Assembly (NCBI GenBank): GCA_038087875.1
Contig: CM075988.1
Span: 19,780,001-19,844,000, forward strand
DNA: 64,000 bases
Direction: 5' to 3'
Origin: Malacoraja senta
Lineage: Eukaryota
In this document: piece after piece, positions 3,540 through 56,200 of the stretch
Layout of the letters: each line of letters opens with the position of its first letter
How positions within the stretch are numbered: the first letter of the stretch is position 1
The notes under the pieces: generated by a model
Told to the model about the DNA's origin: nothing
Databases searched by the model: none
The model's input: the letters and a program-made list of their open reading frames with translations, nothing else
Program-made: the position numbers and the translations under genes

Positions 3540-4490
3540 TCCAGAAAAAATGCCTTTCACTGAGATTTCACTCTGATTTTGTTTTAAGAGTCCCTTCAGC
3601 CCATCATGCCTGTACTAGCCCAGGAGGAGTCCCTTCGGCCCATCAGTAAGTATTCCCCCTGCAAGTATTAAACCTCAACCCAGTATTTTTCTCCCTCCCT
3701 TCATTCGCTCCCTGTGAGATCCAGGCCAGGATAGACTTTCCTCCTTCATTGCTGTGATCTGCAGAAATAGATGAAAAATGTCTAAAATTAATTCTCCACC
3801 CTCTCCCCTTTCTCTCTCACAGAGTCTCTCACCTGTTTTGGACAGAATTTCTGGCAGTTTCTGAGCTGCCAGCCCACCAGCCCTGAGTGACTGAGCTGCC
3901 AGCTCACCAGGCCTGAGTGACTGAGCTGCCAGCCCACCAGGCCTGAGTGACTGAACTGCCAGCCCACCAGGCCTGAGTGACTGAACTGCCAGCCCACCAG
4001 GCCTGAGTGACTGAGCTGCCAGCCCACCAGGCCTGAGTGACTGAGCTGCCAGCCCACCAGGCCTGAGTAACTGAGCTGCCAGCCCACCAGGCCTGAGTGA
4101 CTGAGCTGCCAGCCCACCTGGCCTGAGTGACTGAGCTGCCAGCCCACCAGGCCTGAGTGACTGAGCTGCCAGCCCACCAGGCCTGAGTGACTGAGCTGCC
4201 AGCCCAACAGGCCTGAGTGACTGAGTTGCCAGCCCACCAGGCCTGAGTGACTGAGCTGCCAGCCCACCAGACCTGAGTGACTGAGCTGCCAGCCCAAGAA
4301 TCCATTCATCCCACGTCCATACTAGCCCTCTGGAAATGTCCCTTCGGCCCACAACACCCATACTAGCACTCCAGAAATCCTCCCCTCCCATTGGCCACCA
4401 ATATTGGAATTGGTGGAGAGGTGGAATATTGCATTGGGGGACCAGCCCTCCCGTGTGAACATGGGACGCAATGGGTCCCACTTACTCTAG
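3540..4490 (+). mobile_element. Putative Helitron/Helentron-type non-autonomous element (3' end defined, 5' end not)
   Basis: Subterminal hairpin TGGGAC-gcaatgg-GTCCCA (4462-4480), then CTAG (4487-4490) followed by T. Contains the minisatellite. Confidence 0.5.
3861..4296. repeat. 30-bp minisatellite, ~14.5 copies
   Basis: Unit CTGAGCTGCCAGCCCACCAGGCCTGAGTGA with few substitutions. Confidence 0.98.
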
Positions 4491-11872: not shown

Positions 11873-12107
11873 ATTTTGATCTTTTTGATCTTAGCATGTT
11901 ATAATTTTACTTCGGAGTCACGCGAGTGACTACGTGAAGAACCCCGCCAGGACGCATGCGTGTCATATCGCTACACGCATTGCGAAACAGTCACGCGGGT
12001 GGAACGACGTTCCCCCTCAGCGGCAAAGTTAAGAGCCGGGAACTGCAGGTAAGAGATACTCTGCGTTCTTTTTGTTCTCTACATACTGTGTTACAGGTGT
12101 GGAGTCA

Positions 12108-13343
12108 ATGGACAAGACGAGGAAAACTAAGAAGGCTGCTACAAAGCTGGCGAGGGAGAACCGCGGAGTTGCGGGCAGCCAGCAGCGGCAAGCGGCACGT
12201 GAATCACCCGTAATGGGAACAGCTGTGCCCGACTTCGGCCCCGCACCGGCCAGATCTACACCGCGGCCGGGCGGTAAGGCAATACAAAAGTCTAATAGAG
12301 TCGTCGACTCGGATGAGTCCGACTTTGAGCAGCCGCGAGCGGCCAGCAACCGTGAACGCTGGAGCCGGATGGAGCGGCTTATGGAGCAAATGCTCCAACG
12401 TGACAGGCTCCGGGAGATGGAGTCTAGTCACTGTGGGCAATTTAATGCACCCACAGCAGCACCTCTTGTAGGTCTGCACAGTGCATCTCCCTCGTCAGAG
12501 GGGAGTACTGGGGGTCAATTCTGGGCTGACCCTGAAGAGGGGTTTGCAGAACAAACATCAAGTGTGCGAGGGGTGCAGGAAGACCAAGATCTACTGGACA
12601 TGGTGTCCCAATTCATACAGCCAGACCAAACTGGCCGAAACCTGGAACCGAAACTAGCTGCCAGTATTGACTATATGTCATTTAAGCAGCTACAGGAACA
12701 GGCTGTATTGGACACCACGGCAAGACATTTGCCACCAGGGAACTGTACATCCCTGAATGTTCCTATTGTAAATAATTACATATGGAAACACGTCGGAGCA
12801 GGAGTTAGAGGCATGGATGTCAAACTCCAAAAAGTACTGAAGCTCCTAACAACGGGAATAACAGCTTTCGCCCGCACAGTAGATGAAAAGGAGATGTCGC
12901 AGGATCAACAGGATGCACTGGCACTGCTCTATAATACACAATACAAAATAAACATCATCAGGAAGAGTGCCATCCGACCTGCTTTAAACCCGAAATTTGC
13001 AGGTCTGTGCAAACCTGGAAATATAAAACCACCAATTTTATTATTTGGAGGTGACCTATCCAAACAAGTCAAAGAGCTCGATGAGGAGGCAAAAACCCTG
13101 GGGCTCATCAAAGCGGCATCATCAAAAACCTACTATGGTCATAAACAGCACCCTTATGCACCCACCAGTACAACAAGACAAACTGGTGAAAGCTCAAAGG
13201 CCAGGTACACCGCGCATCGGTCTTTTTTAGGCCATGGCCCAGACCGGCCTTCGTGGAAGATGCGCAAACCACCAACGCCAACCCAACCACAAACCCAGAC
13301 ACCGGCGCCTCAACCTCCACGAAGGATTCACAAAAAGAAGTAA
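12108..13343 (+). CDS. DIRS ORF1 gag-like protein (411 aa from first ATG)
   Basis: Open frame upstream of pol with basic N-terminus, PGNCTSLNVPIVNNYIW and LLFGGDL segments like DIRS ORF1, and a Pro/Gln/basic C-terminus. Assignment mostly positional. Confidence 0.85.
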   Translation: MDKTRKTKKAATKLARENRGVAGSQQRQAARESPVMGTAVPDFGPAPARSTPRPGGKAIQKSNRVVDSDESDFEQPRAASNRERWSRMERLMEQMLQRDRLREMESSHCGQFNAPTAAPLVGLHSASPSSEGSTGGQFWADPEEGFAEQTSSVRGVQEDQDLLDMVSQFIQPDQTGRNLEPKLAASIDYMSFKQLQEQAVLDTTARHLPPGNCTSLNVPIVNNYIWKHVGAGVRGMDVKLQKVLKLLTTGITAFARTVDEKEMSQDQQDALALLYNTQYKINIIRKSAIRPALNPKFAGLCKPGNIKPPILLFGGDLSKQVKELDEEAKTLGLIKAASSKTYYGHKQHPYAPTSTTRQTGESSKARYTAHRSFLGHGPDRPSWKMRKPPTPTQPQTQTPAPQPPRRIHKKK

Positions 13344-13360
13344 ACCTGCCACTGGTAACT

Positions 13361-15285
13361 ATGGAGGTAGGTGGGTCTGGTTCCTTACGAATTGCAGGGA
13401 GAATGGAGGTTGGTGGGAGATGACACTTCTTTCTGGATGCATGGATTATGTTAACTACAGACACTTATATTTTAAGCAGTATCCAGGGATATACCATAGA
13501 ATTTATACACAAACATAGCCCTCCAGTTCAGCATGTACCGAACCGAATGTTCGTACTTTCAGGTAAAGAAAAATCAGACGCACATGCTGAACTGGAGCGG
13601 CTTTACGCAAAAGGGGTAATTGAAAAAACCCAACACGAATCGCTGGAATTTGTGTCCAATATCTTTACCAAAAACAAAAAAGATGGTCGTTGTCGCATCA
13701 TCATAGATTTGACAAATTTGAATATTTTTGTACACTATATTCATTTCAAAATGGAAACCTTTGTTACTGCTAAACAATTGATTTCCAAAGGTTACTTCAT
13801 GGCTAGCATCGATTTAAAAGATGCTTACTATTCAGTGCCTATACGAGGTGACCACAGATGTTATTTAAAATTCAACTGGATGGGACAGCTCTGGCAGTAC
13901 AGAGCACTACCAAATGGGCTAACATCAGCCCCAAGGCTGTTCACTAAAATTTTGAAACCAGCCCTATCGTTTCTGCGGAAACAAAAACACATGGTGATGG
14001 CATACTAGATGACAGACTTATTGTGGGCAAAACTTTGGACTTGGCCAAAGAAACAGTAACAGCCACAAAACAATTATTTAAAAAACTGGGGTTTATCATC
14101 CATCCAGTTAAATCTAAATTAAACCCTTCCACCACAATGGATTATTTGGGGTTCACCATTAACTCAGTTCACATGTCGGTGACTTTGCCTAAAGAAAAGG
14201 CTATAGCCTTAAAAGAGGCTTGCAATAACCTCATTGACATCAGTAAACCATCCATCAGATTGGTAGCAAGAATAATTGGCAAAATAGTGGCTGCCTTTCC
14301 AGCCACACAATTTGGACCTTTACATTATCAAAATTTACAGAGGGCAAAAATACGAGCACTCAAAGTTAATGCTGGTCATTTTGACAGACCAATGAAGCTA
14401 CCAATCGAAGCCATAATGGAACTAAAATGGTGGAAAGATAACAGTCTGCATTGTTCCAATCCAATCGTTATCAGCAACCCTTCTGTGGTACTACAAACTG
14501 ATGCCAGTGCACTTGGTTGGGGTGCTACCAATTCCATCTCCAGCTGTGGAGGTAGATGCAATGCACAAGAGGCGTCATTGTTACAAACACTGGGCATAAA
14601 CTACCTGGAAATGTTGGGTGCATTCCATGGCCTAAAGTCATATTGTTCTGGGTTATATCACAAGCATGTTAGACTACAGATTGACAATACCACGGTGGTA
14701 GCATATATCAACCACATGGGTGGAAACAAATCGGCATCATGTGACAATCTGGCCAACACAATTTGGCAATGGTGTATCCAGAAAAATATTTGGATATCAG
14801 CCACTTACCTACCAAGTAAACTAAATTCAGTGGCAGACACCAGGTCACGCAAATTTAATGAAAACACCGAATGGATGTTGGATAAAAAAGTATTTGCTGA
14901 TATTACAGCATGGTATGGAACACCAGATATCGATCTATTTGCATCCAGGCTTAATCACCAGTTATCAAACTATGTTTCATGGGAACCAGACCCTGGGGCA
15001 GCGGCGACAGATGCATTTTCGCTGCATTGGGGGAAATTGTTTATTTATGCATTCCCTCCTTTCTGCCTCATCAGTCGGGTATTAAGGAAAATACAGCAAG
15101 ACTCTGCGTCTGGTATTTTGGTAGTACCCGATTGGCCTACTCAACCATGGTTCCCTGTGATACTCGACATGGTATTAGAACCATGCATCACCATCTGGCA
15201 TAGACCAGATTTACTGGTTCATCCCGTAACAAGGGAAAGCCACCCTTGTCATAACCATATGAACTTATTAATTTGTAGAGTCTAA
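13361..15285 (+). pseudogene. DIRS pol: reverse transcriptase + RNase H + DNA N6-adenine methyltransferase-like domain, disrupted
   Basis: RT motifs VGGR*HFFLDAW, SIDLKDAYYSVPI, ALPNGLTSAPRLFTK. YLDD split by a 1-bp deletion at ~14005; TGA at 13421. RNase H motifs TDAS, INYLE, IDNTT, NSVAD. MT motifs DLFAS, DAF, YAFPPF, PDWPTQPWF. Confidence 0.95.
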
Positions 15286-16256
15286 AAGTACCTTTACTGC
15301 AACTGGGACTGATGGACTGAACAGTGAACATTATTTCAGCGGCCCACAGACAGTCCACCAAAAAACAGTACCTGGTATACATCAGGAAATGGGAGATGTA
15401 CTGTCACAGAAACAACATCACCTACAGATCAATGAACATCCTGTCTGTTCTGGAATTCCTGGCAGGCCTCCATTACGATGAGGGGCTCAGTTATAGTGCC
15501 ATCAACTGCGCCAGAAGTGCCCTGTCAACATATCTATACCAAGGAACAGAGCGTCATTCTGATGGGACTCACCCCCTGGTAACAAAACTTATGAGGGGAA
15601 TTTTTAATATCAATCCCCCAAGAACCAGGTACTCCCAAATATGGGATGTGAGTATTGTCCTGACTATGCTAAGGAATTGGTCTCCAGCAACAGCTCTGTC
15701 GCTACAAAGACTGACACTGAAAACAGTCATGCTGATGGCATTGGTCACGGCACAAAGGGTACAGTCATTACATAAATTAAGACTGGACAACATGACTTCT
15801 TCATCTGGAAATATAACGTGTCATATTTATGAATTAGTCAAGCAGAACAGACAGGGGTCAGCAGGCCTCAATATAGAATTTAGGGCTTACCCGACAGATG
15901 ATCGCCTCTGTATAGTAAGACATTTACTGCTATATATGGAGAACATGAAAATCATCAGAGGCAAAGAGATGGCACTATTAATCAGCCACAAGCAACCTCA
16001 CAAAAAAGTGACAGTCCAGACCATCTCAAGATGGCTGAAACAGGTTCTAATAAAGGCTGGGGTGGATACTAACATTTTCAAATCTCATTCCACCAGGGCT
16101 GCAGCTACATCGGCAGCTATGCAGTTGGATGTTCCGATGGACCAAATCCTCAAGACAGCAGGATGGTCAAGGGAGAAAACTTTCCAACTATTTTATCATA
16201 AACCAGTAATTAAACCTGGAACGTTTGCAGAAACAATTTTAAGTTCTGTAATATAA
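15279..16256 (+). pseudogene. DIRS tyrosine recombinase (YR); in-frame TGA at 15318 near the N-terminus
   Basis: Catalytic set R (TAQRVQSL), K (KQNR), HxxR (SHSTR), W and Y (AGWS...FQLFY). N-terminal binding-domain-like segment STKKQY...LSYSAINCARSAL. Confidence 0.93.
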
Positions 16257-51050: not shown

Positions 51051-53065
51051 TTCTGCTCTCCATCTTCTAGTGTGGAGACCAGAGCCATGCACCATTTCAT
51101 AAGTGCGGTCTTATCAATATTTTGTATCACTGCAACATGCTGTTCCAACTCATACTCAATTCCCCAGTGTATGAAGGCAAGCATACCAAACGCCTCTACA
51201 CCACTGGATTCATCTGTGGAGTGGCCGGGTCGAAGACGAGACGGGGGGGGGGGGAAGGAGGTGAGACGGGGGGGAAGAGGTGAGGAGGGAGCGGAGGTGA
51301 GGAGGTGGGGTGTAGAGGAGGCGAGGTGGTGGGGAGGAGGCAGGTGGAGGAGGCAGGGAGGAGAAGGCAAGATGATGGGATTAGAAAACACATAACAACT
51401 GAGGAAGATGCCTTTGGAGCAGAGAGAGAGAAAAAAATCTGATAATTATGGGTAAATCAAGCCTCTATTAAAAGTGAGGAACTTCAGGTTATTGATGTTA
51501 GCAAAGAAAATAAATAATTGGATTAAGAGGCAAAAAATCTATTGACCTTTCAGAATTTATCCTGTAATTCTCAGGCAGAAAGCTGCAGAGATAATGGTGC
51601 ACTGGTTCCAGGATGGTCTCTGCTGTGTGAGAGAGGAGGGAGAGCATGCACAACTCTGTGCTAATTATCTTGGCATCAGCTGTCAGTGACATGCTGGAAC
51701 CATTTTACAGGCCATGATAATGGGCACATATAAAAGCAGGCAGAGTCAACACTGTTTTATGAAAACATATTCATAGAGTTTTCAATGGGCTAACAATAGG
51801 GTGGTGATGTAGGAATTGATTTTACTAGGTTTTCAGAAGACATTTGAATTAATAAGCACTAAAAACATAAATAGTAACAAAATGGCAAAGGTGTGCAGCT
51901 GGTCAGGCAGCAGCAGAGGAGATAATATTTTTCATTATTTAATAACAATAATAATAATGACCGTGAATCAGGAATTGAAAAAGTTAAAAATAAAACAAAG
52001 TTATAAGTTCCATAAATTAATGGAACGGAGAACAAAAAGCAGGGTCCGTGGTCCAGTGGTGATCAGGTTGGGTCAGGGTGTGACGTAATGGAGAGAAATA
52101 CCAGAGATTCACTGCTGCCAGTGGACCATGTGCCAGGGCTTGGTTTGATCTTCACATACCCCTTTGGCTCAGTCAGCCAAAGACCATGCAGTGGCACTGA
52201 AGGTGGCATGATTCCTCATCGATGTCCGTCTTCACTCAGCAGTGGCTCCCAGGCAGTCCAGGCTTAACAGGGTCTCATTTTGAACGTACATTGTCAAGAA
52301 GGTGTGTTACACTGTGAGGGCAAGTTAAGTTTAGATTAATTATTGTTATATATACCGAGGTACAGTGAAAAGATTTGTTTTTCATGCTATTCAAATAAAT
52401 CAGGTATGCCGAATGTAGATACAATCAGTTCAAACTCAAGTATAATGGATAGAGCAAAGGGGCAGATACAGAATGCAGAATATAGTTATCAGCATTGTAG
52501 CACATCAGTTCTATAGACAAAGTCCAATATCCTTGATGGGGTAGAGGTGAATCAGACAGTACACTAGCTTATGGTAGGACCATTCAGAAACCTGTTAACA
52601 GAGGTGAAGAAGGTGTTCCTGAGTCTGGAGGTGAGCTCTTTCAAACTTCTGTAGCTCCTGCCAGACCGGAGAATGAATAACCTGGATGGGACAAGTCTTT
52701 GATTAAGTTGGCTGCTTTTCCGAGGCAGCATGAAGTGTCTATGGAGTCAACGGTGGGGAATCTGGTCTTTGTAATAAAGCATCACTTTCATATGTAGCTG
52801 TGTATAATATGCTGAGTCATGGAATTCTCTATGGATAGATAATTTTTTTTGAACATTTGGAAAAATGAGGGCAATCGTCAACTGGTGCAGAAGAAGTGTT
52901 GAGGCCTGGGGCAGATATTAAATGGGAGAAGAGGCTTGACGGGCCAGGTGGTCTTCTCCTGTTCCTAGTTTCTACAGTCCTTGTCGTCATATCAAGCCTT
53001 TTCACCCAGAGTGATTAATGGAAGCATCCCATGCAAAACCGTTAATGCACAGTAGGGCATTCCAT

Positions 53066-53119
53066 GGGGTGGGAGATTGCAACCTTCACGTGGTCCACCC
53101 TGTTTCGACTAATGCAATC
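53066..53119 (+). ncRNA. Minimal HDV-like self-cleaving ribozyme (predicted)
   Basis: P1 GGGGUGG/CCACCCU, P2 GAUUGCA/UGCAAUC, P3 ACC/GGU, L3 UUCACGU, minimal P4 U-UUCG-A, J4/2 CUAA. G1 is the first base after the TSD. Confidence 0.85.
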
Positions 53120-53203
53120 AACCCGACGTGCACAAACAAATAGATCAAATAGAACAAGTTGACCTCCAACTTTAGGCTGTGCACGCCATATGCAAGAAGA
53201 AGA
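53066..53203 (+). mobile_element. 138-bp non-autonomous retroposon, probably Ingi/Vingi-related
   Basis: Perfect 12-bp TSD AGGGCATTCCAT (53054-53065, 53204-53215), (AAG)n tail, no pol III boxes. 5' end resembles the ingi/L1Tc Pr77 signature. Confidence 0.85.
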
Positions 53204-56200
53204 AGGGCATTCCATTATGGCAATGGGAACGCAGCCAAGGATTTTTTCATCTCCAAGTTTTGAACAGAAAAGTTCATAAATGATTTGTAGCATCACGATA
53301 ATTCCCACTGTTGTCCGTGGATGTGTGGGAAGGATTCTTTGATCTAAATAAAATCACCTGTTCTTTTCTGACTCTATTTTAGATTCACCAAAATCGCACG
53401 CTTGCTGTTTTTAAGGAGGATAGATGTGCATCTTGCTGAACAAGCGGGAAGTCAGACGTTGAATTATGACTCTTGAAAACATTAAGGATTCATCAACTTG
53501 TTCTGAAAACCCTTTCCCTGGCTGTTTGAACCGGTAAACGCATTTACAAGTCACACAGCCTCTCCAACCCACACCAAGAACAGAGGAAAACTGCTCAGAA
53601 ATGTATGCACAGTCAGCAGCCTTGAACAAGGTGTGTTTCAGCAACGTTGCATTGAACTCTGAAATTCATTCCCTTGACTTTAAAGGGAAGGATTTTGGAG
53701 ACAGATGATAACATGTGGGCAACAGGTAGTGCTGCTGCCTCACAGCTTTTTCAACTTGGGTTCCATCCTGTCTGTGTGGAGTTTGCATGCTTAGTTTAAC
53801 GGCATTATGTTGGGCATGGACACGATGGGCCAAAGGGCCTGTTCCTGTGCTGTACTGTTCTATATTACCTGAAACATGTGAAAATACAGTTGCAGCAAGG
53901 CTGTGAGGTGTTTTATGAGACACCTTGCTGTTGATTCCTGAACAGGTGCAGTGTTTCACTCCTACACTGTCCCATATGCTATTGATTACTACCTTCCTTG
54001 GATATTCCCAAGAAAGCTGAAGCAAAGAGCAGAATAACATGGACTCAGCAACATACATTTAGCAGTTCTAACCGCTTCCAATCAGCTGGTTACCATGGTT
54101 ATGCTTCTCCCTGGAATTCAATGCTCCTTCCTAAACAAGTGGACAAGATGAAATATTTCAGAGCATCACCGACATATCTGAACAACTCTCACAATTTCCA
54201 TCACCTCTGGACCTTGACAATGCCCCTTGGCTTAACTCCATCCATTGCTGACAATCCGTCTTGCAAGGCAAGTTTCATATAACTCATTGTGTGTAGCTCC
54301 CAGGACTCTAAGGTACAGGGACAGTGGAAGAATACAGGTTGTTAAAGGAGCAAAAGAAGATGAAGCGTAGACACAAGGAACTGCAGATGCCAGATTGCAA
54401 AAAAAGACATAAAGTGCTGGAGTAACTCAGCATGTGCTGGAGTAACTCAGTTATAAGACTGATAAACGGACTTTGTCCCCTGCCAAAGTATCGTGCACCA
54501 ACCACCAACCTGGACACACTGCAGCAGAGCCACTGTCGTGCCGCTGCCGATCGGAACGCATGTTGATGTTTAGTAGAGTAGAGTGTTAATTTGTTCATGA
54601 CATATGTATTTTTACTTCTATTTATTTTTTACTGCACACTGAAATGGACACTGGTTGAGGAACGTTTTTTTGTTTCCTCTGGGTATGCGAATACTCAGGA
54701 AATGACAATAAAGATATACAATACAATGTCACGCAGCGTCTGTAGAAAAGATGGACAGGTGACGTTTCTGGTTGGGACCCATGTTTAGAAAGGAGGAAGT
54801 TCACTACTATCTCCATGACATTGACTGACTCAACCACTGAGCTGTAAACTGACTCAAAACTTCATTCTCTCTAATCTTGACCACTGCTGTCCAATCCTAG
54901 CACTCTGATCTCTGACAAACTGAGATCATTTAAATGTGCTATTCAACTCTCCAGATCTCCTGTAGGGTGGCACAACGGGGCAGCTGTTTGGGCTGCTGCT
55001 GCACAGCCACAGAGATAATGTTCTGTACTGTAAATGTGGAGTTTGCACGGTCTCCAATGTTCTGTATATGTGGAGTTTACATATTCTCCCTGTGGCTGCA
55101 TGGATTTCCTCCAGGAGCTCCGGTTTCCTCCCACATCCCAAAGACATGCGGGTTTGTAGGTTAACTGATCTCTGTAAATTGCCTCCAGTGTGTAGGGAGT
55201 GGATATGGAAGTGGAATAACATAGAACTAGTGTGAACAGAAAAAAAATAGTCACTGTACCTCTGTACACGTGATAATAAAGAACCGATTGGGTGATTGAC
55301 GGTTGCCATGGATTGTGTGGGCCGAAGGGTCTCTTGGCATGCTATCTTTCAATCGATCAAACTAGCACTGAATTCCACTACCCATCACCTCTGACCCATG
55401 TGGACTCCTGGTTAGGTAAGTTTAAAGCTTGCATCCTTGATTAGCAACCACTCCATGATCTCACCCCACCCCCTCTCTCTCCAAACTGCTTCAATCTTAC
55501 AACATTGCAAGATCTCTGTGCTCCTCTATTTCTGGCCTCTGAATCATCCATAAGCTTAAATCGTTCCACCATTGATTGGTAGGCATGTCTCCAGCTGCCT
55601 GGCTCCCCGGTTCCTAAATCTTCTGCGAAAACCTCTTCACCTTTATTAATGGATGAAGAAGCTCCGTAATAAATCTTACCTCTGACCAGACTTCTAGTCA
55701 AATCTCACATGAGTCAGAATCAAGTAGTGTTTATTCATACTCAGGCAAACCAATAGGGAATATCTTTTACTATATTAAGGTGGCACGGTGGTAGAGTTGC
55801 TGCCATCGCAACAGTGACCCGGGTTCGATCCCGAATGCAGGTGCTGTCTGTACGGAGTTTAGACAATCTCCCTGTAACAGCAAGGGTTTGCTCCGGACGC
55901 TCTGGTTTCCACCTACGTTCTAAAGCTGTGTAGGTTAATTGGCTTCTGTAAATTGTCCCTCGTGCGTGGAATAGAACCAGTGTATGGATGATCGTGGTTG
56001 GTGTGGACTCAATGGGCCGAAGGGCCTATTCCCATGCAGTGTCTCTGAACAAAACGAAGGTGCGAAAAAAATGCAAATCATAGTTGTTGCTGTCTGTTCA
56101 GTGAAAGAGATCCAAGGCACAAAGTGAAAGGTATAACTTAACCATTGGCATCTTTACCCCATCCTGTTTAATGCAGTTGTTAATTGAAGACAATAATAAA

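What the first reader, a model, noticed from the sequence alone, without database searches (positions are those of the whole stretch)
53054..53215. 138-bp retroposon whose first 54 nt form a complete minimal HDV-like ribozyme
Seen: perfect 12-bp TSD and (AAG)n tail. Starting at the first inserted base is a fully paired nested double pseudoknot: P1 GGGGUGG(53066-72)/CCACCCU(53095-101) with G1-U wobble; P2 GAUUGCA(53075-81)/UGCAAUC(53113-19); P3 ACC/GGU closing L3 UUCACGU; one possible P1.1 pair C53087-G53102; vestigial P4 U-UUCG-A; J4/2 CUAA with candidate catalytic C53109. Established: ingi/L1Tc-type LINEs begin with an HDV-like ribozyme with a similar ACC-U..ACGU-GGU core. Inference: a ribozyme-headed SINE-like element without a pol III promoter, which cleaves itself out of host transcripts and borrows an Ingi/Vingi RT via its 3' end. 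I do not know whether this family has been described.
Basis: partly seen in the sequence, partly recalled or inferred. Interest (0 to 1): 0.9.

Follow-up and report, generated by a model that had tools for sequence, protein, structure and literature searches.

The report
Ribozyme-headed retroposon related to CPEB3
A 138-base jumping element that begins with a small self-cutting RNA motif belongs to a large group of such elements in this genome, and their motif closely resembles the ribozyme in the mammalian CPEB3 gene, which may point to where that ribozyme came from.

Summary
Window 53066-53203 is a 138-bp insert with a 12-bp target-site duplication and an (AAG)n tail. The genome search gave 3178 first-look candidates; all 40 scored were 97-100% identical and 36 of 40 start at base 1.

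The first 54 nt fit a minimal HDV-like ribozyme. A covariance model built only from other families finds 53066-53119 end to end (29.9 bits, E 2.7e-5) as the sole significant hit in the window. Across 40 distinct sequences, 88% of cells pair and 18 of 22 pairs change on both sides.

The element is one of at least seven ribozyme-headed families. One is an autonomous 3.1-kb LINE (endonuclease plus reverse transcriptase, no RNase H) with the same kind of head and an (AAG)n tail.

The heads of the LINE and of five other families (E, F, G and two single variants) pass Rfam's threshold for the mammalian CPEB3 ribozyme (37-64 bits; 39 of 60 genome matches). Family A itself does not.

Self-cleavage and the reverse-transcriptase donor are inferred, not shown. 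Ribozyme-headed non-autonomous LINEs are known (NARTc/RIME, R2 SIDEs). I found no paper reporting the CPEB3 link.

The parts
53054..53065 (+). 5' copy of the 12-bp target-site duplication
   Evidence: Identical to 53204-53215. 53053 (T) differs from 53203 (A), so the repeat is no longer than 12 bp.
53066..53119 (+). Minimal HDV-like (CPEB3-related) ribozyme; predicted cleavage 5' of G53066
   Evidence: Model R1, built from 18 ribozymes of other families, matches end to end at 29.9 bits, E 2.7e-5; the next hit scores 9.4 bits. Rfam RF02682 aligns end to end but below threshold (17.5 bits).
53066..53072 (+). P1 5' strand, pairs with 53095-53101 (G53066-U53101 wobble)
   Evidence: 7 of 7 pairs in the sequence. 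P1 was not part of model R1, yet 5 of its 7 pairs show changes on both sides across families and 83.8% of cells pair.
53075..53081 (+). P2 5' strand, pairs with 53113-53119
   Evidence: 7 of 7 pairs. All 7 pairs show changes on both sides and 95% of cells pair (the alignment was fitted to this helix).
53082..53094 (+). P3 (53082-84 with 53092-94) closing L3 UUCACGU (53085-91); C53087 pairs with G53102 (P1.1)
   Evidence: This L3 has the same letters as the Rfam CPEB3 consensus L3 printed. The C-G P1.1 pair is present in 40 of 40 distinct sequences.
53095..53101 (+). P1 3' strand
   Evidence: In other organisms the common variant 53097 A>G keeps the pair with U53070 as U-G (table 3).
53102..53108 (+). 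J1/4 G plus a vestigial P4 (6 nt)
   Evidence: Model R1 aligns this stretch to a deleted P4. Family G has nearly the same short stretch.
53109..53112 (+). J4/2 CUAA with candidate catalytic C53109
   Evidence: The column pattern C-N-A-A holds in most rows of the alignments; the two A columns are invariant in the 18-sequence alignment A1. The 53110 T>G variant in other organisms gives CGAA, as in family B and the LINE head.
53113..53119 (+). P2 3' strand
53120..53193 (+). Body with predicted 3' stem-loop (53127-34 with 53178-85; 53156-61 with 53167-72)
   Evidence: MFE -15.1 kcal/mol, z -2.11; 5 of 200 shuffles fold as well. All 8 frequent body variants seen in other organisms lie outside these stems (tables 3-4). 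A role in reverse-transcriptase recognition is inferred.
53194..53203 (+). (AAG)n tail
   Evidence: The tail is present in all 30 fetched copies; its length varies.
53204..53215 (+). 3' copy of the target-site duplication

Best explanation
Window 53066-53203 is one copy of a young, high-copy, non-coding retroposon, which I call family A. Its first 54 nt form a minimal HDV-like self-cleaving ribozyme of the same lineage as the CPEB3 ribozyme.

Proposed cycle:
1. The element has no promoter of its own and is transcribed as part of longer transcripts (inferred).
2. The ribozyme cuts just 5' of G53066, so the RNA starts at the element's first base and keeps the whole ribozyme (inferred; it fits the uniform genomic 5' ends).
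3. A LINE-encoded endonuclease/reverse transcriptase primes on the (AAG)n end, probably helped by the 3' stem-loop. It copies the RNA into a staggered nick, which gives the 7-13 bp duplications. The duplications are shown; the donor is inferred.

The most likely donor is a 3.1-kb single-ORF LINE (endonuclease plus RT, no RNase H). It starts with the same kind of ribozyme and ends in (AAG)n. A 5.1-kb I-like LINE with an (AAG)n tail is the alternative.
For: Retroposon:
- 12-bp duplication and AAG tail.
- 3178 candidates; 40 of 40 scored at 97-100% identity; 36 of 40 start at base 1.
- 29 of 30 copies start at the same G, and 18 of 30 have exact 7-13 bp duplications.
- A 3'-end query returned 30 of 30 family-A copies, 24 of them aligned from base 1. 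One is truly 5'-truncated and has its own duplication.
- In contigs of four other runs the flanks diverge at 53065/66 and 53203/05 (table 7).

Ribozyme:
- Model R1, built from 18 heads of other families, gives one significant hit in the window: 53066-53119, end to end, 29.9 bits, E 2.7e-5.
- On 40 distinct sequences, 88.3% of 828 cells pair, against 65.5% in shuffles (0 of 500 as high) and 35-45% when partners are slid.
- 18 of 22 pairs change on both sides. The covariation score is 0.567, against 0.185 in shuffles.
- P1, which the model did not contain, has 5 of 7 pairs with double changes.
- The only two frequent variants inside the ribozyme in other organisms keep the fold: 53097 A>G gives U-G, and 53110 is the variable J4/2 position.

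Relatives:
- Families B, C, D and G are also uniform at the 5' end and have AAG tails. Candidates: B 837, C 2073, D 396, G 1692.

No pol III head.

Donor:
- The LINE has a ribozyme head, an endonuclease-RT ORF, an (AAG)4 tail and a 12-bp duplication.
- Its last bases before the repeat, ACACGA, match those of families C and D.
Against: - No cleavage or RNA 5'-end data. All runs were contigs and none is on record as RNA.
- Family A reaches no Rfam gathering score: RF02682 gives 17.5 bits against 44, and RF00622 was not listed at E up to 10.
- The nested fold of the 54 nt is no more stable than shuffles (z +0.20). This energy model cannot count the pseudoknot.
- P4 is vestigial and only one P1.1 pair is possible, so activity could be weak.
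- The alignment used for P2, P3 and P4 was fitted to the model. The sequences are related, so the shuffle control overstates support.
- Bodies of A, B, C, D and G show no significant similarity to the LINE's ends (z at most 2.4). They are therefore not simple internal deletions of the copy I read.
- The LINE copy read end to end has a stop codon inside its long frame.
Confidence: 0.8

Rival explanations
1. The head keeps an HDV-like shape but no longer cleaves. It would serve as a protein-binding, 5'-protecting or promoter-like module, and the uniform 5' end would come from transcription initiation.
For: P4 is vestigial and only one P1.1 pair is possible. Family A falls below all Rfam thresholds. 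Nested-fold energy is not unusual. No cleavage data exist. From listings and abstracts only: the first 77 nt of L1Tc/NARTc act as both promoter and ribozyme (PMC3383444).
Against: All conserved HDV-type positions are kept: G1 wobble, L3, the C-G P1.1 pair and C-N-A-A in J4/2. Helices co-vary between families, which implies selection on the fold in source copies. Family G has the same minimal P4, 1692 candidates, and passes the CPEB3 threshold.
Confidence: 0.12
2. The reverse transcriptase comes from the 5.1-kb I/Ingi-like LINE (ORF1 with zinc knuckles; ORF2 with endonuclease, RT and RNase H; (AAG)6 tail). It does not come from the ribozyme-headed compact LINE.
For: This LINE has an (AAG)n tail in two copies. 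ORF1 and ORF2 are intact. 34 of 104 ORF1 matches cover the full length at 93-100% identity. The body of family D is homologous to its 5' UTR including the start codon: score 55 against 25.8 +/- 4.8 in shuffles.
Against: Its copies have no ribozyme, and their 5' ends differ from copy to copy. Its last bases before the repeat differ from those of A-D, while the compact LINE shares ACACGA with C and D.
Confidence: 0.35
3. It is an ordinary pol III SINE whose head happens to resemble a ribozyme.
For: It is short, high in copy number and has a uniform 5' end.
Against: ARAGORN finds no tRNA-like gene. No B-box-like motif lies inside the element (the motif was recalled). No Rfam tRNA, 5S or 7SL hit. 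The head matches a ribozyme model built from other families.
Confidence: 0.02

Closest known systems
NARTc and RIME, the non-autonomous partners of L1Tc/ingi in trypanosomatids (PMC3383444 and PMC4035085, listing and abstracts; PMC5786205, passages)
   Same: Short ORF-less elements that start with an HDV-like ribozyme shared with an autonomous LINE and insert at many sites.
   Different: Those are protist elements with a 77-nt head that is also a promoter, and with A-rich tails. This head is 54 nt, belongs to the CPEB3-type sequence lineage, and the tail is (AAG)n. The body is not a plain internal deletion of the LINE copy I read.
R2 SIDEs, short internally deleted elements (PMC3414825 abstract; PMC6765202 passage)
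   Same: Non-autonomous elements that keep a LINE's 5' HDV-like ribozyme and a 3' end used by the LINE protein.
   Different: SIDEs are rDNA-specific and low in copy number. Family A is dispersed (36 of the 40 scored copies lie on 14 large contigs, 4 on small ones) and has thousands of copies.
Mammalian CPEB3 ribozyme, Rfam RF00622 (PMC10919898 and PMC8256844, passages)
   Same: Same fold. L3 has the same letters as in family A. In the related heads P3, P2, J1/4 and J4/2 also match the Rfam consensus, and 10 of 10 tested heads pass the gathering score at 37-64 bits.
   Different: CPEB3 is a single-copy intronic element described as conserved among mammals. These are multi-copy heads of retroposons. 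Family A itself does not reach the RF00622 score.
Bipartite non-autonomous LINEs of the RTE and Vingi clades (PMC5786205, passages)
   Same: They derive from compact single-ORF LINEs that need both ends. That paper lists RTE among the clades with 5' ribozymes.
   Different: That paper does not list Vingi among the ribozyme-bearing clades. The clade of the LINE found here is unresolved.
Minimal HDV-like ribozymes without P4 (drz-Mtgn and theta ribozymes; PMC10879173 listing only, otherwise recalled)
   Same: The size is about 50-60 nt with P4 reduced to a few bases.
   Different: Those come from bacteria and phages and are not linked to retrotransposition. The minimal form here sits within a eukaryotic CPEB3-type lineage (family G).
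Schistosome SINE-like elements with hammerhead ribozymes, and twister variants in schistosome LINEs (PMC6765202 passage; PMC8501958 abstract)
   Same: Self-cleaving ribozymes that define the ends of non-LTR retroelement RNAs.
   Different: They use other ribozyme classes.

Membership tests
HDV-like self-cleaving ribozymes (fold class) | Nested double pseudoknot: P1 and P2 crossing, P3 inside, P1.1 between L3 and J1/4 | tested here: met
   All helices are fully paired in the window copy. 88.3% of cells pair and 18 of 22 pairs show double changes across 40 distinct sequences.
HDV-like self-cleaving ribozymes (fold class) | Cleavage site immediately 5' of G1, with nothing upstream required | tested here: inconclusive
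   Genomic copies begin at G1: 36 of 40 and 29 of 30. Flanks are unrelated (table 7). This fits cleavage there, but no RNA ends were seen.
HDV-like self-cleaving ribozymes (fold class) | Catalytic C in J4/2, and Mg2+-dependent self-scission | not testable with these tools
   C53109 sits at the expected place in a C-N-A-A motif. Activity needs a bench assay.
HDV-like ribozymes as catalogued in Rfam (RF02682, RF00622, RF00094 and others) | Score at or above a family's gathering threshold | tested here: not met
   For family A: no gathering-level hit. RF02682 gives 17.5 bits against 44, and RF00622 is not listed at E up to 10.
CPEB3-type ribozyme lineage (RF00622), tested on the related families in this genome | Score at or above 35 bits | tested here: met
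   39 of 60 genome matches are over the cut-off, best 64.2 bits. 10 of 10 fetched heads score 37.4-64.2 bits. Family C scores 34.9 and D 24.3 bits, both just under or under.
The ribozyme superfamily of this genome (model R1) | Significant end-to-end match to a model built without family A | tested here: met
   29.9 bits, E 2.7e-5, model positions 1-67 of 67, at 53066-53119. The next hit scores 9.4 bits.
Bipartite non-autonomous LINE (NARTc, RIME, SIDE type) | No ORF, target-site duplication, and a tail like the partner LINE's | tested here: met
   138 bp, 12-bp duplication and (AAG)n tail. Two LINE families end in (AAG)n.
Bipartite non-autonomous LINE (NARTc, RIME, SIDE type) | 5' and 3' parts derived from one identifiable autonomous LINE | tested here: inconclusive
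   The head is of the same ribozyme superfamily as the compact LINE's. However, the body shows no significant similarity to that LINE's ends (z -0.2 and -0.3). Other LINE subfamilies were not surveyed.
SINE in the strict sense (pol III head from tRNA, 7SL or 5S) | Small-RNA-derived head with internal promoter boxes | tested here: not met
   No tRNA-like gene. No B-box-like motif within 53066-53203 (the motif was recalled). No Rfam hit of that kind.
Vingi or RTE clade (for the ribozyme-headed LINE) | Single ORF with endonuclease and RT, no RNase H, about 3-4 kb | tested here: met
   About 3.1 kb; Pfam finds Exo_endo_phos, Exo_endo_phos_2 and RVT_1 only.
Vingi or RTE clade (for the ribozyme-headed LINE) | Placement on an RT tree with reference elements | not tested
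   No reference LINE sequences were available in the tools. It is 24% identical over 740 residues to the I-like LINE of this genome, which does not decide the clade.

The most novel reading that the evidence does not exclude
The mammalian CPEB3 ribozyme is a domesticated head of this retroposon lineage. An ancient copy of a ribozyme-headed LINE or its short derivative would have landed in a CPEB3 intron and been kept. If so, 'CPEB3-type' ribozymes are primarily retrotransposon 5'-processing devices, still active in thousands of copies in a genome that does not look mammalian. It carries a DIRS-like element and an intact I-like LINE with RNase H, which to my recollection mammals lack.
Probability: 0.55. 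Interest if true: 0.85.

Novelty: new variant of a known kind. Interest (0 to 1): 0.75.

Why it matters
Four points.

1. **Scale.** Here HDV-like ribozymes head at least five abundant short families. Summed first-look candidates: A 3178, B 837, C 2073, D 396, G 1692. Published cases known to me are mainly LINE heads and low-copy derivatives.

2. **A natural minimal form.** The families include 54-nt heads (A and G) next to full-size relatives. That gives a ready-made series for asking what P4 and P1.1 contribute.

3. **Link to CPEB3.** The sequence-level match makes an open question testable: where the one well-studied functional HDV-like ribozyme of mammals came from. Four literature searches found no paper making this link. 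The library lacks most subscription journals and Repbase/Dfam records.

4. **Possible tools.** Compact LINEs that need defined 5' and 3' ends are being developed as gene-insertion tools (PMC13708176, passages). A natural ribozyme-plus-(AAG)n system with very short cargo RNAs may be useful there.

Tried and rejected
**Partner hunt**
- The top Pfam RVT_1 matches led to two L1 families with A-rich ends. I rejected them as partners.
- A 3'-end query returned only family-A copies.
- A pattern meant to catch a LINE 3' end sharing family C's tail gave 11 hits. The 3 I fetched were all variant C copies.
- A pattern joining family D's head to the I-like LINE's start codon region found nothing.
- Two more distant I-like LINE families (ORF1 about 30% identical) have no ribozyme-like L3 motif upstream of ORF1. 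One of them ends in (AAG)4.
- Bodies of A, B, C, D and G compared with the compact LINE's ends showed no significant similarity.

**RNA evidence**
- No RNA holder was listed, and all runs laid were contigs. No molecule ends could be read.

**Folding**
- The nested MFE of the ribozyme is not better than shuffles.

**Rfam**
- Nothing in the window reaches gathering level.

**Earlier scan notes**
- Nothing on this genome or on this sequence. One search listed only unrelated phage and transposon ribozymes.

**Papers**
- Ruminski 2011 and Kojima 2011 are not held. What I say of them is recalled or taken from citing papers.

I used coordinates from earlier outputs instead.
- The RT clade was not resolved. 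I ran no further search on it.


Full report
**1. The observation**

One search shows the 12-bp repeat AGGGCATTCCAT at 53054-65 and 53204-15. It flanks a 138-bp insert (53066-53203) that ends in AAG repeats.
- P1: 53066-72 with 53095-101, including the G-U wobble at its base.
- P2: 53075-81 with 53113-19.
- P3: 53082-84 with 53092-94, around L3 UUCACGU.
- One possible P1.1 pair, C53087-G53102.
- Six bases in place of P4, then J4/2 CUAA.

The head occurs once in the window. The window has no Rfam hit at gathering level. With permissive settings, the F. prausnitzii HDV model RF02682 aligns end to end on 53066-53119, but at only 17.5 bits (threshold 44).

**2. It is a retroposon family with a precise 5' end**

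The window lies in a 1.94-Gb assembly. The 138 bp gave 3178 first-look candidates. All 40 scored were 97-100% identical, and 36 of 40 start at query base 1.

In 30 fetched copies:
- 29 start with the same G; L011 has a substitution there.
- All 30 end in AAG repeats of varying length.
- A script found exact duplications of 7-13 bp in 18 copies, one of them doubtful. Several of the other 12 are imperfect by eye.
- L009 and L010 are one duplicated locus.

A query with the last 65 nt gave 2300 candidates. All 30 fetched were family-A copies, 24 of them aligned from base 1. One (L046) is truncated at base 40 and has its own duplication.

ARAGORN finds no tRNA-like head. No B-box-like motif lies inside the element (the motif was recalled).

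**3. Other organisms**

No run on record as RNA holds the stretch, and all runs were contigs. That leaves expression and RNA ends open.

Contigs of four runs from four coded organisms carry the element in large numbers: 17068, 14759, 1140 and 173 pieces laid. Depth over the element is roughly 10^4-10^5 times that of the flanks in the two large runs. Loose ends with unrelated letters sit at 53065/66 and at 53203/05.

One contig of run X6 spans the 5' junction of this locus with 31 letters inside the element. This suggests the same insertion in that organism.

Frequent variants inside the ribozyme are only two:
- 53097 A>G, which keeps the pair with U53070 as U-G.
- 53110 T>G, the variable second base of J4/2.

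The body has eight frequent variants, and all lie outside its predicted stems.

**4. More ribozyme-headed families**

Running RF02682 over the genome gave five matches of 26-37 bits. These belong to a 206-bp family B with a full P4, duplications and an AAG tail. It has 837 candidates, and all 40 scored were 91-95% identical.

Scanning the DNA already fetched for AAG tails revealed two further families:
- Family C: 191 bp, 2073 candidates, all 40 scored at 96-98%.
- Family D: 169 bp, 396 candidates, all 40 scored at 96-97%.

All begin with an HDV-like head. P1, P2 and P3 differ in sequence between families, while L3, the J1/4 G and the C-N-A-A of J4/2 stay the same.

**5. The link to CPEB3**

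Rfam placed family C's head on the mammalian CPEB3 ribozyme model RF00622 at 34.9 bits (threshold 35, E 3.4e-6). Family D scored 24.3 bits.

Over the whole genome RF00622 gave 60 matches. 39 are over the threshold, and the best reaches 64.2 bits (E 2.7e-14).

I fetched 16 of these matches. All ten that I re-scanned pass the threshold at 37.4-64.2 bits. The printed alignments show the same L3, P3, P2, J1/4 and J4/2 letters as the CPEB3 consensus. Changes in P1 and P2 are compensatory.

By my hand count's alignment, copy L101 of the old, low-copy family F matches the consensus at 51 of 60 aligned positions, including the start of P4.

Family G has 1692 candidates, and all 40 scored were 95-96% identical and full length. 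It has the same vestigial P4 as family A and still passes the CPEB3 threshold. Families E and F have only about five recognisable copies each.

**6. Family A belongs to this lineage**

I aligned 18 heads from families B, C, D, E, F, G, two single variants and the LINE, with no family-A sequence. From that alignment I built a covariance model with P2, P3 and the base of P4.

Run over the whole window with filters off, the model gave one significant match: 53066-53119, model positions 1-67 of 67, 29.9 bits, E 2.7e-5. The next hit scored 9.4 bits.

Over 72 sources it found 56 matches and produced an alignment with 40 distinct rows. On that alignment I counted a pseudoknotted structure that also includes P1 and P1.1:
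- 88.3% of 828 cells pair. Shuffles give 65.5 +/- 1.1% (0 of 500 as high), and slid partners give 35-45%.
- 18 of 22 pairs change on both sides.
- The covariation score is 0.567, against 0.185 in shuffles and 0.06-0.11 when slid.
- P1 was not in the model. It has 5 of 7 pairs with double changes and 83.8% pairing. Some misses come from flank bases or one-column register shifts in families C, D, G and one variant.
- The P1.1 C-G pair is present in 40 of 40 rows.

Caveats: the rows are related, and the alignment is fitted to P2, P3 and P4.

**7. Autonomous partners**

Top RVT_1 hits were L1 elements with A-rich tails, which I rejected.

*An I-like LINE.* Pfam Exo_endo_phos_2 hits led to a 5146-bp LINE with an 11-bp duplication.
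- ORF1 is 401 aa. By eye it has three Cys-His knuckles; Pfam found no family for it.
- ORF2 is 1277 aa and contains endonuclease, RVT_1 and RNase_H.
- The tail is (AAG)6.
- 34 of 104 ORF1 matches are full length at 93-100% identity.
- It has no ribozyme, and its 5' ends differ between copies.
- Family D's body is homologous to its 5' UTR: score 55 against 25.8 +/- 4.8 in shuffles.

*A ribozyme-headed LINE.* The strongest CPEB3-type hits are the first 73 nt of a second LINE. About 30 nt after the ribozyme an ORF opens with an endonuclease N-terminus.
- 12 of 18 matches to its 5' region cover it fully at 98-100% identity.
- 28 of 40 scored matches to its mid-RT region cover it fully at 96-100% identity.
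- One copy read end to end is about 3.1 kb. It has a 12-bp duplication and a long frame with Exo_endo_phos and RVT_1 and no RNase H. That frame is interrupted by one stop codon in this copy. The element ends ACACGA followed by (AAG)4.
- Families C and D end with the same ACACGA before their repeats. Families A and B end in ACGC.
- The bodies of the short families do not resemble this LINE's ends.

I therefore treat it as the likeliest donor type, not a proven parent. Its architecture fits RTE or Vingi. It is 24% identical over 740 residues to the I-like LINE, which does not decide the clade.

**8. Mechanism**

*Shown:*
- insertion with duplications and AAG tails;
- exact, shared 5' ends;
- an HDV-type fold conserved by covariation;
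- coexistence with (AAG)n-tailed LINEs, one carrying the same type of head.

*Inferred:*
- read-through transcription;
- self-cleavage 5' of G1;
- protection of the 5' end by the fold;
- priming on the AAG repeat, helped by the 3' stem-loop (z -2.11).

**9. What is known**

From passages in PMC5786205:
- Six LINE clades (R1, R2, R4, RTE, Ingi, LOA) are listed as having 5' ribozymes.
- Four clades (RTE, Ingi, Vingi, R2) are listed as producing bipartite non-autonomous derivatives.

[quoted passage not shown] R2 SIDEs and NARTc are the described cases (PMC3414825, PMC3383444; abstracts). The kind of element is therefore known.

Passages in PMC10919898 and PMC8256844 describe the CPEB3 ribozyme as conserved among mammals and unlike HDV in sequence. 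Four searches found no paper tying it to a retroposon family. Ruminski 2011 and Kojima 2011 could not be read, and Repbase/Dfam could not be queried.

The genome looks non-mammalian to me. The window holds a DIRS-like element, and the genome holds an intact RNase H-bearing I-like LINE. That judgement rests on recalled knowledge of where such elements occur.

**10. Verdict**

Cleavage and the donor remain to be shown. The element is a new variant of a known kind. The wider result deserves follow-up: a multi-family, CPEB3-type ribozyme system at the 5' ends of a LINE and its short dependents.

Noticed in passing
window 12033-16256 (+): A row of long open frames with RVT_1, an RNase H-like domain (RVT_3) and a tyrosine recombinase (Phage_integrase). 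This is the layout of a DIRS-like retrotransposon.
   Followed up: partly
window 53223-53300 (-): A weak match to the C/D-box snoRNA family snoZ157 (22.2 bits, threshold 55, E 0.042) right next to the element. If real, the element sits in an intron of a minus-strand host gene.
   Followed up: no
window 3675-4481 (-): An open frame of 268 aa matching Pfam 'Decapeptide repeat region' (E 1.1e-22).
   Followed up: no
L072 1285-1400; L081-L088: Copies of the 5.1-kb (AAG)n-tailed I-like LINE share only the last ~70 nt of the 5' UTR. Upstream of that, each copy or subgroup carries different sequence, as if 5' ends were variable or transduced.
   Followed up: partly
L017:144-312 (-) versus L072 1285-1410: The part of family D after its ribozyme is homologous to the I-like LINE's 5' UTR, including the start codon. 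The similarity seems to begin inside the 3' end of D's ribozyme. This may mean that LINE lineage once had a ribozyme head.
   Followed up: partly
L110 2820-3053: In the compact LINE copy read end to end, the reading frame after the internal stop continues through a Cys/His motif and runs into the AAG repeat. The repeat would then encode lysines and the 3' UTR would be almost absent.
   Followed up: no
L009/L010, L034/L035, L039/L040, L032/L033: Pairs of family-A copies with identical flanks at different coordinates. These are recent segmental duplications or assembly duplicates.
   Followed up: no
G000 C1302 and C15 (rows): Many RVT_1 matches with the same 794-aa frame and one TAG lie close together on contig C1302 and on C15. 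This looks like a tandemly amplified block containing a retroelement.
   Followed up: no
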